From contig CAITMJ010000010.1 of assembly GCA_903893545.1 (NCBI GenBank), positions 29,602-93,601 on the forward strand: 64,000 nucleotides of DNA, given 5' to 3'. The stretch comes from an uncultured Chlamydiae bacterium (GTDB taxonomy: Bacteria > Chlamydiota > Chlamydiia > Chlamydiales > SM23-39). Positions 54,001-57,000 of the stretch are shown piece by piece. The number at the start of each line of letters is the position of its first letter. The stretch's first letter is position 1. The position numbers were made by a program.

Positions 54001-57000
54001 AACGAGAATCGATGAGCCGAACGCTGTTTTACTTTTTTTCCTTCGGATCGATCGTCACCTTTCCTTTTGCTTGGGATGTCTGGGTGCCGCCAACGGGACG
54101 GGAGTGGCTGTTTACAATCGCCATTGGCGCGACAACGGCTATAGGACAGATCTTACTCACCATTGCGTACCGCTACGGAACAGCTGCCTATCTCTCCCCG
54201 CTTGGCTATTCGGTCGTGATCTACAATGGACTTATCAGCTATCTTCTATTCAATACTTCACTCGGCTGGCATTCGCTGGCAGGAGTAATCCTCATCATTA
54301 CTGGAGGGACCCTCTCCTTTCTTTGGAAGAGAAGCCCTCATCCAATCAAAAGCAGTTTTGAGGCGGACCACTCATCAAAATAAGCCTTTTCGATCGACTC
54401 ATAGAAAACCCCCTCTTCTGTCCGAGATAAGATAAAATAATATGTTCCCTTTTTGCAATCGAGCTTTGGCAAATCGTTTTGTTGCCAGTGATTCACAGTG
54501 TGTTCTAAAAGAGAGGAGCGAAAGGAAAAAAAATCAGCATTCAGTTCAAAAAGAGCGCTCTCTGGATTTATGGCGTGGTAGAGCCGCTCATAAGCCGCGT
54601 CGATATCGGCGATGTTGATCAATAATTTCCGATCTTCCTCGTCGTACTCCTCAGAGATCCACTGCATTAAATGGGTGCCGAGATGAGGGAGAAACCAGTC
54701 GTTTGGCGGATAGCGCAAAAAGTAAGGCTCAGCGATGAGGGTATTAAAATCTCTAAATCCAAATAAGCGGACAAGAGTTGGGTAGGCTTCTTGTAGAAGA
54801 ACAAATAGCCGCCACCAATATTGCTGATTGTAGATGCCAAAACGCTGCTCCGCGCTTAAAGTAGGTCCAGGGGCTATGCGCGACCGAATCTCTTGATTCA
54901 CTGCCTCGGAATAGTTGGGCAGATTAAACTCCCCGATGTCTCGGAAAGTGCGCGTAAGATGGTTTGCGAACCAAATTTGGAGCTCTTCAAGGGCAAGAGG
55001 AACTTTATCCATAAGCTACCTGATGTTGGAATGCTTTGGCTTTGAGGGCTTCTTTCCAGGTGTCTTCAAAGGAGATATAATGATCGTCCCATTCGAGAAG
55101 CGTCGAAACTCCTTTCGTTTTTGGATAGATCTCTCCATAAAGCGCCCAAACCTCATCGCAAACGGGCTGGTCGTGCGTATCGAGAATGTAAGCGCCCATA
55201 TTGCGATGGCCCGCTAGGTGAATCTGCACAATGCGATCAATGGGCAAATTCGTTAGATATTCTTTGGCGTCAAACCCTTGGTTGCGGCTCGAAACATAGA
55301 TGTTATTGACGTCGAGCATCATGCCGATATCTGCCTTTTCGACAACGGCGGAATAAAATTCCCACTCAGACATCAAATTGTTCGTAAAATCGGCATAGGT
55401 AGAGAGGTTTTCTAAGGCGAAAGGAACTTCGAGAAAATCTTGGATCACCCTTGCCCTTTCGGCGACGTACTCGACCACCTCAGGCCGTCTTGGCAGCGGC
55501 AGAAGATCGTGGTAACGAGCTCCAGGCAACCGGCCCCAGCAAAGATGGTCAGACACCCAAGGCGATTTTGTTTTCTGCGCAAGAGCTTTTAATTTTTTCA
55601 AATAGTCCCAATCGAGGGGCGCTGCGCTCCCGATGGCAAGGCTTACGCCATGCATCACAACCGGATATCGCTCGAGGATCTTCTCTAAATTTCGGGTAGA
55701 TGCTCCCTCTTCTAAGAACTGCTCGCTGATAATTTCAAACCAATCGATCTCTGGCCAAGAGGCAAAAATCTGCGGCAGATGAACCGGCCTAAGCCCTATG
55801 CCAACGCCCAGATTAACAACATCTTTAATCATGGGCCAAGAGAATAAGGAAATGGAAAAAAAAAGGAAAGCCTATATTTGCTCTTAAGGATACAGAGGGA
55901 AAATGACAAAAAGAGATCGTTGCTAGTCGCCTGTAGGGCGACTAGCAAGATACATATCACTCTTCTGTTTGAGCAGCGGTTTCCGCAGTCGCATCACCTG
56001 GGATCTTCATTTCTGAAGAGGCGTCCGATTGCTCTCCGCAATCGCAATCAGCGCACCCGCCATTCGAGTTGTCTTGCGATTCGCTAGAATTTTTGTCTTT
56101 AGAACATTTAGACATTGCAATTTCTTTTCCAACAAACGGAGCCTTGGCAGATAGACATAGACCCGCGAGTAAACCAACCATTGCTAATGTTGCGATCTTT
56201 TGTTTCATTTTTTCTTCTCCTTGGGACAGTCTCTTCCGCCCTCTTTTGAATCTATCCGATCAAAAAATCGACTAAAATTTTTTTATGCGGATAGGTTCTT
56301 TGTTTGGAAAGTACGGTTCTTATTTTTTTCTGTCTAGAAAAAAAAACGCAAAATAGCTACCATTGCAGCTTCTTACCAACTCACTTGGGTAACCATTAAG
56401 ATGAAGCTTGTTTTTTCGTTTTTTCTCAGTTTCTTTTTCGCTCATTCTTTTGCTGTCGAAGGGGATCTACACGATTTTTCTGGGAAACATTTTGTCGCTA
56501 GTTATTTGGATTGTCATCCAAAGGCTCTCGGAGATCTAGATGGGCTTTTAAGCGCAATGGATGAAGCGGTGAAAGCTTCAGGCGCATCGATTTTAAATCG
56601 AACGTTTCATATTTTCCCACCCAATGGGATCACCGTGGTCTATCTTCTTTCTGAAAGCCATGCGAGCATTCATACGTATCCAGAATATGGCGCTTGCTTT
56701 GTCGATTTATTCACCTGCGGCGAGACCTGTTCGCACGAAGGATTCCATCGCCTCATGCAAGAGTATTTACAACCAGGACAAGTCAATGCGCGAATGTTCT
56801 CGCGCAGTAAGACAACAGAGGAAATCCCTCTCTGCCCTTGTCATTGACGATCTATTCGTTCTTTTAAACGGTCGCTGAGTTGCTGCCATTCAGTTTGGCT
56901 AAAAGACTTGAGGTTATTTAAATTCCAACTCGGAAATACTGAGATTTTTTTGACATTCAACCTCACTAATTCAGACTGTTTCCATTGATCAATGATCCCT

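What the first reader, a model, noticed from the sequence alone, without database searches (positions are those of the whole stretch)
54338..56208. MNIO (DUF692) + DUF2063 peptide-modification pair with a Sec-signal, Cys-bearing precursor-like ORF in a chlamydia-like genome
Three co-directional minus-strand genes make up the locus. The first is an 83-aa ORF (55957-56208) with a strong SD, the Sec-type signal MKQKIATLAMVGLLAGLCLSAKA, and an acidic mature region with Cys in SKCSK and GGCADCDCGEQ. A perfect 12-bp stem-loop follows at 55920-55948. The second is a DUF692 enzyme (55005-55832) with all the blocks I associate with that family. The third is a DUF2063 protein (54338-55012) whose start overlaps the DUF692 stop by 8 nt. 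Established knowledge: DUF692 enzymes are the multinuclear non-heme iron oxidative enzymes (MNIOs). They post-translationally modify Cys (or other residues) of ribosomal peptides in methanobactins (MbnB/MbnC), 3-thiaglutamate, chryseobasins and the copper-binding bufferins. In bufferins a signal-peptide-bearing precursor sits directly upstream of DUF692 and DUF2063 genes. The architecture here is the bufferin-like one. However, the core sequence does not resemble the DUF2282-type or EGKCG-type precursors I remember, and no DoxX-type fourth gene is present (the next gene is a convergent EamA transporter). A hairpin between precursor and enzyme genes is the classic arrangement for over-expressing a RiPP precursor relative to its tailoring enzymes. 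I am not aware of any RiPP metallophore described for Chlamydiae. An exported metal-binding peptide would be relevant to metal stress inside a host vacuole.
Basis: partly seen in the sequence, partly recalled or inferred. Interest (0 to 1): 0.8.

Follow-up and report, generated by a model that had tools for sequence, protein, structure and literature searches.

The report
Chlamydial bufferin-like peptide cassette, partner truncated
This is a three-gene cassette of a well-known, very common type that makes an exported, cysteine-modified, probably copper-binding peptide; here it sits in an uncultured chlamydia, has a peptide of an uncatalogued small subfamily, and its helper protein has lost the end that normally grips the peptide.

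Summary
Three co-directional minus-strand genes are present: an 83-aa signal-peptide and Cys ORF, an MNIO (PF05114, E 3e-98), and a DUF2063 protein overlapping the MNIO by 8 nt. A 12-bp hairpin follows the small ORF.

The bufferin-like reading is supported. The MNIO scores best against NCBIfam BufB (300.8 bits, cutoff 310). It keeps all residues I take to be the iron ligands and the catalytic Asp249. It carries Asp250, the published signature of Cys-Lys (BufB2-type) enzymes.

The small ORF looked like an orphan in a direct search. Synteny-guided retrieval found six homologues next to MNIO genes that are 68-85% identical to the window's. They share GKEIAMSKCSKD, and Cys35 and Cys52 are invariant. 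In 33 of 34 assessable Chlamydiota loci a signal-peptide and Cys ORF precedes the MNIO.

The DUF2063 partner (224 aa) has lost about 16 internal and about 48 C-terminal residues that all 24 chlamydial relatives keep. A deletion clipped both convergent 3' ends. The lost part is the RRE-type substrate-recognition domain, so activity in this genome is uncertain.

The class (bufferins/captophorins, more than 20,000 clusters) is known. Published tables already list DUF692 and DUF2063 in Protochlamydia and Waddlia. I rate this a new variant of a known kind, of moderate interest.

The parts
56217..56222 (-). Shine-Dalgarno AAGGAG, 8 nt upstream of the precursor ATG
   Evidence: Read directly from the sequence. 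The MNIO gene has no comparable SD, which is consistent with high precursor-to-enzyme translation.
55957..56208 (-). Precursor-like gene: 83 aa with a Sec-type signal peptide (residues 1-21 or 1-23) and an acidic 60-62-aa core with Cys35, Cys52, Cys55, Cys57
   Evidence: ORF. No Pfam or NCBIfam hit. Six homologues lie in syntenic positions (L163, L165, L167, L168, L009, L085). Invariant residues are M1, L8, A9, L13, L19, S20, E29, A31, M32, C35, C52. With the signal peptide stripped, pairwise BLASTP gives E 1e-7, 2e-5 and 1e-4.
56104..56106 (-). Codon of Cys35 (in S-K-C-S-K), the invariant Cys and the most likely modification site
   Evidence: Invariant in the 11-sequence alignment A1 and the 7-sequence alignment A5. 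That it is the modification site is inferred.
55920..55948 (-). Stem-loop (12 bp, 7 G-C, loop 5) followed by a T-rich tract, between the precursor and MNIO genes. Probably a partial terminator or transcript-stabilising hairpin.
   Evidence: Hairpins of unrelated sequence sit at the same position in L163, L165, L009, L170 and L003, but not in L167 or L168. No Rfam family matches.
55005..55832 (-). MNIO (DUF692) enzyme, 275 aa, BufB-like, Cys-Lys (BufB2) type
   Evidence: PF05114 E 2.7e-98. NCBIfam BufB 300.8 bits (cutoff 310), HvfB 228.5 (cutoff 360). PDB 3BWW E 1.5e-42, plus TglH and MbnB. H61, D95, H96, E141, D174, N176, N177, H205, H209, D218, H220, E247 and D249 are invariant or nearly so in 121 sequences. 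Position 250 is Asp in 106 and Glu in 10 of 121.
54338..55012 (-). DUF2063 partner protein, 224 aa, translationally coupled to the MNIO (8-nt overlap). The N-terminal DUF2063 domain is intact and the C-terminal RRE-type domain is truncated.
   Evidence: PF09836 E 1.6e-12, residues 11-119. It lacks about 16 residues including the conserved LxLQP, and about 48 C-terminal residues including W.Q.W...GW. All 24 chlamydial relatives keep both. PF22106 NGO1945_C maps to that region in L012. The exact allele is seen on 11 contigs.
54338..54383 (.). Deletion scar: a 46-nt overlap of the 3' ends of DUF2063 (-) and EamA (+). Homology to relatives' DUF2063 ends near 54362.
   Evidence: tblastn homology ends at 54362. 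The EamA C-terminus also differs (…FEADHSSK* versus …GQKxPPP* in relatives).

Best explanation
The locus is a minimal three-gene bufferin/captophorin-type RiPP cassette (precursor, MNIO, DUF2063 partner). It belongs to a lineage of such cassettes that is widespread in environmental Chlamydiota.

Proposed mechanism:
1. The small gene is translated strongly. It has a strong SD, and the hairpin after it probably lowers read-through into the enzyme genes.
2. In the cytoplasm the MNIO, with the DUF2063 partner made by translational coupling, uses O2 and its iron cluster to convert one or more Cys of the peptide into 5-thiooxazole, at a cost of -4 Da each. The invariant Cys35 is the most likely site. 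Cys52, Cys55 and Cys57 are possible further sites.
3. The Sec signal then exports the peptide and signal peptidase I cuts after LSA21 or AKA23.
4. This releases an acidic peptide of about 60 aa into the periplasm, where it buffers copper. That would be useful to a bacterium living in amoebal or other host vacuoles.

Shown here: gene identities, conserved catalytic residues, conserved adjacency, and conservation of the peptide and two of its Cys.

Inferred: the chemistry, export, cleavage site, metal, and hairpin function.

In this particular genome a deletion removed the partner's RRE-type C-terminal region. If the cassette still works, recognition must rest on the MNIO, the remaining DUF2063 domain and perhaps the unusually conserved signal peptide. 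I put about 0.9 on the cassette being of this class by descent and about 0.55-0.6 on it still modifying its peptide.
For: - Enzyme identity.
- Active-site residues and catalytic Asp249 are conserved, and Asp250 is the Cys-Lys-type determinant (read against PMC13097082 section 14).
- Partner DUF2063 domain and the 8-nt overlap.
- A signal-peptide and Cys ORF lies upstream of the MNIO in 32 of 34 assessable Chlamydiota loci by script, and 33 of 34 counting L170.
- Longer chlamydial precursors hit BufA2 NF050166 at E 1.5e-10 to 1.7e-4.
- Synteny AdoMet_dc / peptide / MNIO / DUF2063 / EamA / Cu-oxidase_4 is conserved in L163, L165 and L168.
- The subfamily alignment has invariant Cys35 and Cys52, and core-only BLASTP is significant.
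- The MNIO and the partner's N-domain evolve at the sister-lineage rate: MNIO 84.4% versus 84.7%, partner N-domain 70-74% versus 67-74%.
- All ORFs are intact and the allele recurs on 11 contigs.
- Minimal three-gene clusters are known to be active (the fon cluster, PMC13097082).
- Both MNIO and partner are required for thiooxazole formation, and the products bind copper (PMC11626156; PMC11252979; PMC13097082).
- Amoebae use copper in phagosomes (PMC11197307 abstract).
Against: - The partner lacks roughly two thirds of the NGO1945_C/RRE-type domain plus a conserved LxLQP segment. All 24 relatives keep both.
- In HvfABC the partner is the component that binds the precursor, and both proteins are needed.
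- The window's peptide is the shortest in its subfamily. It has the smallest Cys cluster and has lost the basic C-terminal M(K/Q)AKR motif.
- The retained C-half of the partner is slightly more diverged than in sisters (50-57% versus 54-63%).
- The MNIO scores just below the BufB equivalog cutoff (300.8 versus 310).
- The peptide matches no curated precursor model.
- No signal-peptide predictor was available, so the Sec assignment is by rule and by homology.
- No expression or chemical data exist.
Confidence: 0.62

Rival explanations
1. Decaying remnant. The cassette descends from a working bufferin-type system, but the deletion that removed the partner's RRE-type domain abolished precursor recognition. 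The peptide is then exported unmodified or is on its way to loss, and the MNIO has not yet accumulated lesions.
For: - There are two independent lesions confined to the partner's C-terminal half: an internal loss of about 16 aa and a C-terminal loss of about 48 aa. Neither is seen in 24 relatives.
- The shortened precursor lacks the conserved basic C-terminal motif and has fewer Cys.
- The retained C-half is slightly faster evolving.
- In HvfABC the partner binds the precursor and is required for modification.
- Chlamydiaceae have lost the whole system, so loss does happen in this phylum.
Against: - The three ORFs have no frameshifts or internal stops.
- All catalytic residues of the MNIO are intact.
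- Neither the MNIO nor the partner's N-domain shows rate acceleration.
- The SD, the hairpin and the translational coupling are retained.
- The truncated allele is fixed across 11 contigs from several samples.
- Short partner proteins lacking full RRE domains are common in other MNIO systems (PME-type 2, PMC12452194 section 18).
- HvfB still modifies very small fragments of its substrate.
Confidence: 0.28
2. The small ORF is not the MNIO substrate. It would be an unrelated secreted low-complexity or Cys-containing envelope protein that merely lies upstream, with the true substrate encoded elsewhere (for example a BufA2-like gene outside the window).
For: - The peptide matches no curated precursor family.
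- A profile of the Parachlamydiaceae-type MNIO-adjacent peptides that excludes the window clade does not detect it (E 0.45). A core-only profile detects none of its clade.
- Chlamydiae make many Cys-rich envelope proteins (my own background knowledge).
- Only 64 kb of the genome could be inspected.
Against: - A signal-peptide and Cys ORF is adjacent in 33 of 34 assessable loci across deep divergence and with changing flanks.
- The same conserved N-terminal MKKxxLxKLAxxG motif is shared with bona fide BufA2-like precursors in the same position.
- Gene order matches the strict bufABC order reported in PMC12452194.
- No other such ORF exists in the window.
Confidence: 0.06
3. The cassette works, but with a different outcome from canonical bufferins: another metal (zinc, for example), a redox or anti-oxidant role, or a different Cys modification. 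The reasons would be that the core is acidic, lacks His and lacks the usual motifs.
For: - The core sequence lies outside the three described precursor groups. The Cys contexts are K-C-S-K, G-C-A-D, D-C-D and D-C-G rather than EGKCG or CKG.
- MNIOs catalyse varied chemistry (PMC12452194; PMC13097082).
- PMC12452194 itself suggests functions beyond copper.
Against: - All MNIO-PME1 systems characterised so far install 5-thiooxazole and bind copper (PMC13097082).
- The enzyme falls within the BufB-like group and has the same catalytic Asp.
Confidence: 0.15

Closest known systems
Bufferin 2 system (BufA2-BufB2-BufC2; Buf_6/12Cys precursors) of Caulobacter vibrioides and relatives (PMC11626156, PMC12452194)
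   Same: - Gene order is precursor, MNIO, DUF2063 partner, and the precursor carries a Sec signal peptide.
- The MNIO's best NCBIfam hit is BufB.
- The MNIO carries Asp after the catalytic Asp, the Cys-Lys (BufB2) signature.
- Other Chlamydiota loci with MNIOs 67-70% identical to the window's carry precursors that hit the BufA2 model.
   Different: - The window's peptide does not match BufA2 (no hit at E <= 0.1) and lacks the six-Cys CxGxNxC domain.
- There is no DoxX gene and no sigma/anti-sigma genes.
- The partner lacks the RRE-type C-terminal region.
- The MNIO is just under the BufB equivalog cutoff.
Captophorins: fontiphorin (FonABC), oxazolin (HvfABC), gonophorin (PMC13097082, PMC11252979)
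   Same: - It is an MNIO with a PME1-type partner and a Cys-containing precursor.
- The minimal three-gene layout matches the fon cluster.
- A Lys precedes the invariant Cys (S-K-C), as in the modified Lys-Cys motifs.
- The expected product is a 5-thiooxazole copper-binding peptide.
   Different: - There are no EGKCG repeats.
- The MNIO has Asp, not Phe, at the FonB-Phe250 position and Pro at the Arg16 position, so it is not of the Lys-Cys enzyme type.
- The HvfB model scores far below its cutoff (228 versus 360).
- Those systems are described in Pseudomonadota.
Unclassified small signal-peptide and Cys ORFs preceding MNIO genes ('hundreds', 1-18 Cys; PMC12452194 section 15) and the paper's adjamnio-3 and CxxxxC groups
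   Same: This is the category the window's peptide falls into: a short annotated ORF directly upstream of a mega-cluster MNIO, with a predicted signal peptide, a few Cys, a DUF2063 partner and no known signature.
   Different: - The paper does not group or describe the chlamydial peptides.
- Its CxxxxC and adjamnio HMMs were not available to test.
- The window's mature peptide has no CxxxxC spacing (it has CxxC and CxC).
Parachlamydiaceae-type MNIO-adjacent peptides found here (P0126-P0168: signal peptide + AKP[KS]CKAHGGCGGLTASRD + acidic tail)
   Same: - Same position directly upstream of a chlamydial MNIO.
- Same conserved signal-peptide motif.
- A Cys about 10-25 residues after the signal peptide, preceded by I/V-A-x-x-K.
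- An acidic tail.
   Different: - Core homology is not statistically supported once the window clade is left out of the profile (E 0.45; the core-only profile finds nothing).
- The HGGCGGLTASRD block is absent from the window's peptide.

Membership tests
MNIO / DUF692 enzyme (PF05114) | Full-length match to the family model above the gathering score | tested here: met
   328.9 bits against a cutoff of 25, model positions 1-262 of 263. PDB relatives are 3BWW, TglH and MbnB.
MNIO / DUF692 enzyme (PF05114) | Conserved His/Asp/Glu/Asn iron ligands and the catalytic Asp (FonB-Asp249 equivalent) | tested here: met
   H61, H96, E141, D174, N176, H205, H209, D218, H220, E247 and D249 are invariant in 121 sequences including the window; D95 and N177 are each conserved in 120 of 121. 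They align with conserved residues of 3BWW and TglH. Which residue binds which iron is assigned from my memory of MbnB, not tested. The role of Asp249 comes from PMC13097082.
BufB (NCBIfam NF050167, MNIO family bufferin maturase, equivalog) | Score at or above the curated cutoff of 310 bits | tested here: not met
   300.8 bits, E 7.5e-90. This is the best-scoring model but 9 bits short. I call it BufB-like, not a curated equivalog.
HvfB (NCBIfam NF003818) | Score at or above the curated cutoff of 360 bits | tested here: not met
   228.5 bits.
Cys-Lys (BufB2-type) versus Lys-Cys (FonB-type) captophorin MNIO | The residue after the catalytic Asp is Asp in Cys-Lys enzymes and Phe in Lys-Cys enzymes. 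The second Arg (FonB-Arg16) is conserved only in the Lys-Cys type. | tested here: met
   The window reads E247-W-D249-D250, R15-P16. Position 250 is Asp or Glu in 116 of 121 relatives. The criterion is from PMC13097082 section 14. 3BWW, an EGKCG-type neighbour, reads E-R-D-F.
PME-type 1 partner (DUF2063 + RRE-type domain; NGO1945/3DEE-like, HvfC/BufC) | N-terminal DUF2063 domain (PF09836) | tested here: met
   48 bits against a cutoff of 27.2, residues 11-119.
PME-type 1 partner (DUF2063 + RRE-type domain; NGO1945/3DEE-like, HvfC/BufC) | Complete C-terminal RRE-type domain (PF22106 NGO1945_C) and a typical length of about 250-260 aa or more | tested here: not met
   The protein is 224 aa. It lacks about 16 internal and about 48 C-terminal residues present in all 24 chlamydial relatives. 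PF22106 maps to residues 211-284 of the L012 partner, a region the window's protein mostly lacks. The window's protein has no NCBIfam HvfC hit, while L165, L012, L011 and L005 have weak ones. Structural confirmation failed.
Bufferin/captophorin biosynthetic cluster | Gene order is precursor, MNIO, partner, with the precursor gene immediately upstream | tested here: met
   The order is conserved in related loci.
Bufferin/captophorin biosynthetic cluster | [quoted passage not shown] | tested here: inconclusive
   The n/h/c regions and an LSA/AKA site can be read from the sequence, and the motif is shared with BufA2-like chlamydial precursors. No dedicated signal-peptide predictor or experiment was available. 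Pro24 at +1 argues for cleavage after Ala21 rather than Ala23 (my background knowledge of signal peptidase I).
Bufferin/captophorin biosynthetic cluster | Cys converted to 5-thiooxazole, and the product binds copper | not testable with these tools
   This needs co-expression, MS, UV, NMR and metal-binding assays.
BufA1 (DUF2282) precursor | Match to the Pfam DUF2282 model | tested here: not met
   No Pfam family at E <= 0.1.
BufA2 (NCBIfam NF050166, Buf_6/12Cys) precursor | Match to the model and a six-Cys domain | tested here: not met
   The window's peptide has no hit at E <= 0.1. It has four mature Cys in different spacing. Longer chlamydial precursors do hit at E 1.5e-10 to 1.7e-4, which is below the cutoff of 60 bits.
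Buf_EGKCG / oxazolin (HvfA, FonA) precursor | Repeated E-G-K-C-G pentamers | tested here: not met
   There are none in the sequence. No NCBIfam hit.
CxxxxC and adjamnio precursor groups of PMC12452194 | Match to the authors' in-house HMMs or the CxxxxC motif | not testable with these tools
   The HMMs and alignments (their Fig. S3) are not held. By eye the window's mature peptide has no CxxxxC.

The most novel reading that the evidence does not exclude
Chlamydiota carry their own set of MNIO-modified exported peptides. In these, an unusually conserved signal peptide (MKKxxLxKLAxxGxxxG) doubles as the leader recognised by the enzyme complex, while the cores diversify freely. The cores range from BufA2-like to AKPxCKAHGGCGG-acidic, lipoprotein CxGKxxC repeats and the window's KEIAMSKCSKD type.

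On this reading the window's genome is a natural experiment in which the partner has lost its RRE-type domain yet the peptide is still modified. That would show RRE-independent substrate recognition in a captophorin system. It would also be the first RiPP metallophore tied to the intracellular chlamydial lifestyle.
Probability: 0.25. Interest if true: 0.6.

Novelty: new variant of a known kind. Interest (0 to 1): 0.4.

Why it matters
If the cassette is active, it extends copper-buffering thiooxazole peptides to obligate intracellular environmental chlamydiae, whose amoebal hosts use copper against ingested bacteria. It also adds an uncatalogued precursor subfamily to a class that is otherwise defined by three precursor groups.

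The more specific value is mechanistic. The conserved signal peptide across unrelated cores, together with a naturally RRE-less partner, offers a direct test of what these enzyme complexes actually recognise. The authors of the bufferin work list that as an open point.

If the cassette is inactive, it is simply a snapshot of the loss of this system, a loss that has gone to completion in pathogenic Chlamydiaceae.

Tried and rejected
- Direct homology search with the 83-aa peptide found only itself. This apparent orphan status came from the word-index search on a short low-complexity query. Synteny-guided retrieval found homologues.
- I first read the window's peptide as a divergent branch of the Parachlamydiaceae-type AKPxCKAHGGCGG family, because it scored E 7.6e-9 and 3e-5. 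Those profiles contained the peptide itself. A profile excluding its clade gives E 0.45, and a core-only profile gives nothing. I therefore withdrew the claim of core homology. Only the signal-peptide motif and a short IAxxKC resemblance are shared.
- PDB search for the partner returned no hit as a single sequence. With a 19-sequence profile it returned only chance RNase H hits at E >= 0.08. 3DEE was never reached, so the truncation could not be mapped onto a solved structure.
The single-sequence model had mean pLDDT 40 and was discarded. No fold search was run.
- Lipoprotein reading of the window's peptide: rejected. L-A-G-L-C has Leu at -1, and the Cys is absent in L165. Several other chlamydial precursors do have good lipoboxes.
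- Rfam found no family for the hairpin. The only hit was a chance miRNA match inside the MNIO gene (E 0.38).
- The sigma-70-type promoter scan found nothing upstream of the precursor gene.
- The one paper mentioning both Chlamydiae and DUF692 is unrelated.
- Frameshift as the cause of the diverged precursor C-terminus: rejected. The tail still aligns in frame (…MK…AAQ…).
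Full report
**1. Observation**

The three minus-strand ORFs exist exactly as described.
- The 83-aa ORF (55957-56208) has AAGGAG 8 nt before its ATG.
- Its N-terminus MKQKIATLAMVGLLAGLCLSAKA has the n/h/c layout of a Sec signal.
- The remaining 60-62 residues are acidic (pI 4.2-4.3, 13 Asp/Glu, no His) and carry four Cys: C35, C52, C55, C57.
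- The stem-loop at 55920-55948 has 12 pairs (7 G-C), a 5-nt loop and a T-rich tail. The 133-nt intergenic RNA folds with z = -4.2.
- The 275-aa ORF is a full-length MNIO (PF05114, E 2.7e-98).
- The 224-aa ORF carries DUF2063 (PF09836, E 1.6e-12). Its start overlaps the MNIO stop by 8 nt.
- The next gene is a convergent EamA transporter. No DoxX gene is adjacent.
- Identical copies of the locus occur in independent metagenome assemblies, so this is not an assembly artefact.

**2. The enzyme**

- Against NCBIfam the MNIO scores best with the bufferin maturase BufB: 300.8 bits, 9 bits under the curated cutoff. It scores well above HvfB, ApyH, ChrH and MbnB.
- It aligns with the solved MNIOs 3BWW, TglH and MbnB.
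- I aligned the window's protein with its 120 closest database relatives. Positions H61, H96, E141, D174, N176, H205, H209, D218, H220, E247 and D249 are invariant; D95 and N177 are each conserved in 120 of 121.
- PMC13097082 (section 14) shows that FonB-Asp249 is the catalytic base. The following residue is Phe in enzymes acting on Lys-Cys repeats and Asp in Cys-Lys (BufB2-type) enzymes.
- The window reads E247-W-D249-D250, and 116 of 121 relatives have Asp or Glu there. By this published determinant the enzyme is BufB2-like.
- Which residue binds which iron is my recollection from MbnB. It was not tested.

**3. Is the small ORF a conserved precursor?**

Approaching through the enzyme changed the picture.
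- The MNIO has thousands of relatives. Those at 63-85% identity include MAGs named Chlamydiae, Chlamydiales, Parachlamydia, Rhabdochlamydiaceae and Parachlamydiaceae bacterium HS-T3. The next group (Myxococcota, Planctomycetota, Acidobacteriota) is at 57% or less.
- Contigs of the closest relatives (77-85%) keep the same neighbourhood: AdoMet decarboxylase, small ORF, MNIO, DUF2063, convergent EamA, Cu-oxidase_4.
- The small ORFs of L163, L165, L167, L168, L009 and L085 are clear homologues of the window's. They share:
  - the same signal peptide (MKKDLTxLAMVGLLAGxCLSA);
  - an almost identical block (G/E)KE(I/V)AM(S/A)(K/R)C(S/T)(K/R)(D/E);
  - a variable acidic/Ser-rich stretch with a cluster of 2-5 further Cys;
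  - in all but the window, a basic C-terminal M(K/Q)AKR…AAQK motif.
- Cys35 and Cys52 are invariant in this seven-member alignment.
- With the signal peptide removed, pairwise BLASTP remains significant (E 1e-7, 2e-5, 1e-4).
- Across all Chlamydiota-like loci with enough upstream sequence, a script found a signal-peptide and Cys ORF ahead of the MNIO in 32 of 34. L170's 86-aa lipoprotein-type ORF brings this to 33 of 34.

**4. How the chlamydial precursors relate to known ones**

- Many chlamydial loci carry longer precursors whose C-terminal six-Cys domain hits the BufA2 model (E 1.5e-10 to 1.7e-4, below the curated cutoff).
- Others are lipoprotein-type CxGKxxC repeats (L003, L083, L170).
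- Parachlamydiaceae-type loci have a second small gene directly upstream of the MNIO. It encodes signal peptide + AKP[KS]CKAHGGCGGLTASRD + acidic tail.
- A profile dominated by that group finds only 107 matches at E <= 1e-3 among 1.84 billion cluster representatives. These peptides are rare and apparently lineage-restricted.
- I initially read the window's peptide as a divergent member of that group. A control profile excluding the window clade scores it at E 0.45, and a core-only profile finds none of its clade.
- What all chlamydial MNIO-adjacent ORFs demonstrably share is the N-terminal motif MKKxxLxKLA(L/M)xG(L/I/M)xxG. L8 and G16 are invariant and A9 and G12 nearly so in alignment A1.
- Such conservation is unusual for plain Sec signals. 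It fits the suggestion in PMC12452194 that the signal peptide is part of what BufB-BufC recognises. This is inference.
- The window's peptide matches no Pfam or NCBIfam model and has no EGKCG repeat.

**5.

- All 24 other chlamydial partners compared have best-start lengths of 232-305 aa. In the close relatives (L163-L170) the called genes are 274-298 aa. The window's is 224 aa.
- The alignment shows two lesions.
  - About 16 residues including the conserved LxLQP segment are missing after AYERLYHA.
  - The protein ends about 48 residues early, lacking the conserved …LL..F..G…W(F/L)Q.W...GW(L/F) end.
- tblastn homology to relatives stops at about position 54362. The last 8 codons read antisense into EamA.
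- The EamA C-terminus is itself altered (…FEADHSSK* versus …GQKxPPP*). A single deletion therefore removed both convergent 3' ends and the spacer.
- In L012 the Pfam NGO1945_C domain (PF22106, the RRE-type domain of PME-type 1 partners) maps to residues 211-284, the region mostly lost in the window.
- Some full-length relatives weakly hit the NCBIfam HvfC model through to its C-terminal end. The window's protein hits nothing.
- In the Haemophilus system the partner is the component that binds the precursor, and both proteins are needed for modification (PMC11252979).
- Against decay:
  - The exact 224-aa allele occurs on 11 contigs.
  - All three ORFs are intact.
  - The MNIO and the partner's DUF2063 domain diverge from sisters no faster than sisters do from each other: 84.4% versus 84.7% for the MNIO, 70-74% versus 67-74% for the domain.
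  - The retained C-half is only slightly faster (50-57% versus 54-63%).
- Attempts to model the truncated domain failed.

**6. The hairpin**

- Stem-loops of unrelated sequence lie between precursor and MNIO genes in L163 (GC stem followed by U9), L165, L009, L170 and L003.
- L167 and L168 have none; their spacers are short and U-rich.
- The structure recurs while the sequence does not. That is consistent with a partial terminator or stabiliser setting a high precursor-to-enzyme ratio.
- This function is inferred. No Rfam family matches.

**7. Mechanism proposed**

- The precursor is translated strongly.
- The MNIO and partner modify it in the cytoplasm, converting Cys to 5-thiooxazole (-4 Da each). 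Cys35 is the prime candidate and the Cys52/55/57 cluster is possible.
- Sec exports it and signal peptidase I cleaves it. Cleavage is probably after LSA21, because Pro24 would sit at +1 of the AKA site.
- The result is a periplasmic acidic copper-buffering peptide.
- The chemistry and copper role are carried over from characterised MNIO-PME1 systems (PMC11626156, PMC13097082).
- Relevance to host vacuoles rests on amoebal use of copper (PMC11197307 abstract).
- It also rests on the observation that the amoeba-resident Legionella pneumophila subsp. fraseri holds the record number of such clusters (PMC12452194).

**8. Comparison with what is known, and novelty**

- The class is known and very large: more than 20,000 captophorin clusters in RefSeq.
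- PMC12452194 states that hundreds of unclassified small signal-peptide and Cys ORFs precede MNIO genes.
- PMC11626156 names the Planctomycetes/Verrucomicrobia/Chlamydia group among MNIO-bearing taxa.
- The genome table of PMC12452194 lists Protochlamydia amoebophila and Waddlia chondrophila with DUF692 = 1, DUF2063 = 1 and no recognised precursor. Chlamydia species have none.
- No paper in the held library discusses chlamydial precursors.
- What is new here:
  - the chlamydial precursor repertoire, including the window's seven-member KEIAMSKCSKD subfamily;
  - the conserved signal-peptide motif across unrelated cores;
  - a naturally RRE-truncated partner.
- I rate it a new variant of a known kind with interest 0.4.

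**9. Verdict**

The system is ordinary in class but has two features worth a bench test.

Noticed in passing
window 56401-56847 (+): The S-adenosylmethionine decarboxylase (PF02675, residues 30-135) has a hydrophobic, signal-peptide-like N-terminal extension, MKLVFSFFLSFFFAHSFA. Its length (145-148 aa) and its divergent position next to the precursor gene are conserved in L165 and L168.
   Followed up: partly
window 57635-64000 (-): A very large autotransporter (at least 2121 aa, running off the window end) has an Autotransporter beta-domain (E 3e-31), a PATR repeat and highly repetitive Gly/Ser/Thr passenger repeats. It resembles a chlamydial polymorphic membrane protein.
   Followed up: partly
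window 52652-53410 (-): A Cu-oxidase_4 / YfiH-family gene (PF02578, E 6e-61) is syntenic with the cassette in L163, L165 and L168, beyond the convergent EamA gene. The family name suggests copper, but no functional link to the cassette was tested.
   Followed up: no
window 40820-43288 (-): An 822-aa ORF has no Pfam match at E <= 1e-5.
   Followed up: no
window 55957-56208 (-): Public gene calls (NCBI/ENA) start the precursor at Met10 (74 aa), which removes the charged n-region of the signal peptide. Logan/ENA calls and all homologues support Met1 (83 aa).
   Followed up: yes
L011 2019-3520, L088 163-1585, L096 1317-2483, L092 956-2432: Parachlamydiaceae-type loci carry two precursor genes in tandem. 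A long BufA2-like one (266-350 aa; in L092 the long upstream ORF, 304 aa, has only 2 Cys and was not tested) is followed by a small peptide with the sharply conserved core AKP[KS]CKAHGGCGGLTASRD and an acidic tail. About 44 such small peptides were found in 5.8 billion proteins, and none has a curated model.
   Followed up: partly
L163 4679-5368; L168 4659-5174; window 54338-54383: The junction between the DUF2063 and EamA genes is an indel hot spot. L163 has an extra 229-aa gene there, L168 has a DJ-1/PfpI gene, L165 has nothing, and the window has a deletion clipping both genes.
   Followed up: partly
L017 2858-3307; L086 7-1017: Other unusual secreted ORFs lie upstream of chlamydial MNIO genes. 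One is a 149-aa protein with 20 Cys and KCCPTPKP repeats (L017). The other is a 336-aa collagen-like GxY-repeat protein (L086).
   Followed up: no
window 47956-49386 (-), 19433-21970 (-), 93-2084 (+), 38992-40371 (+), 27991-29694 (+): Housekeeping context: SufB/D, Lon protease, glycogen phosphorylase, EPSP synthase and a Sel1-repeat protein. The window's GC content is 47%.
   Followed up: partly
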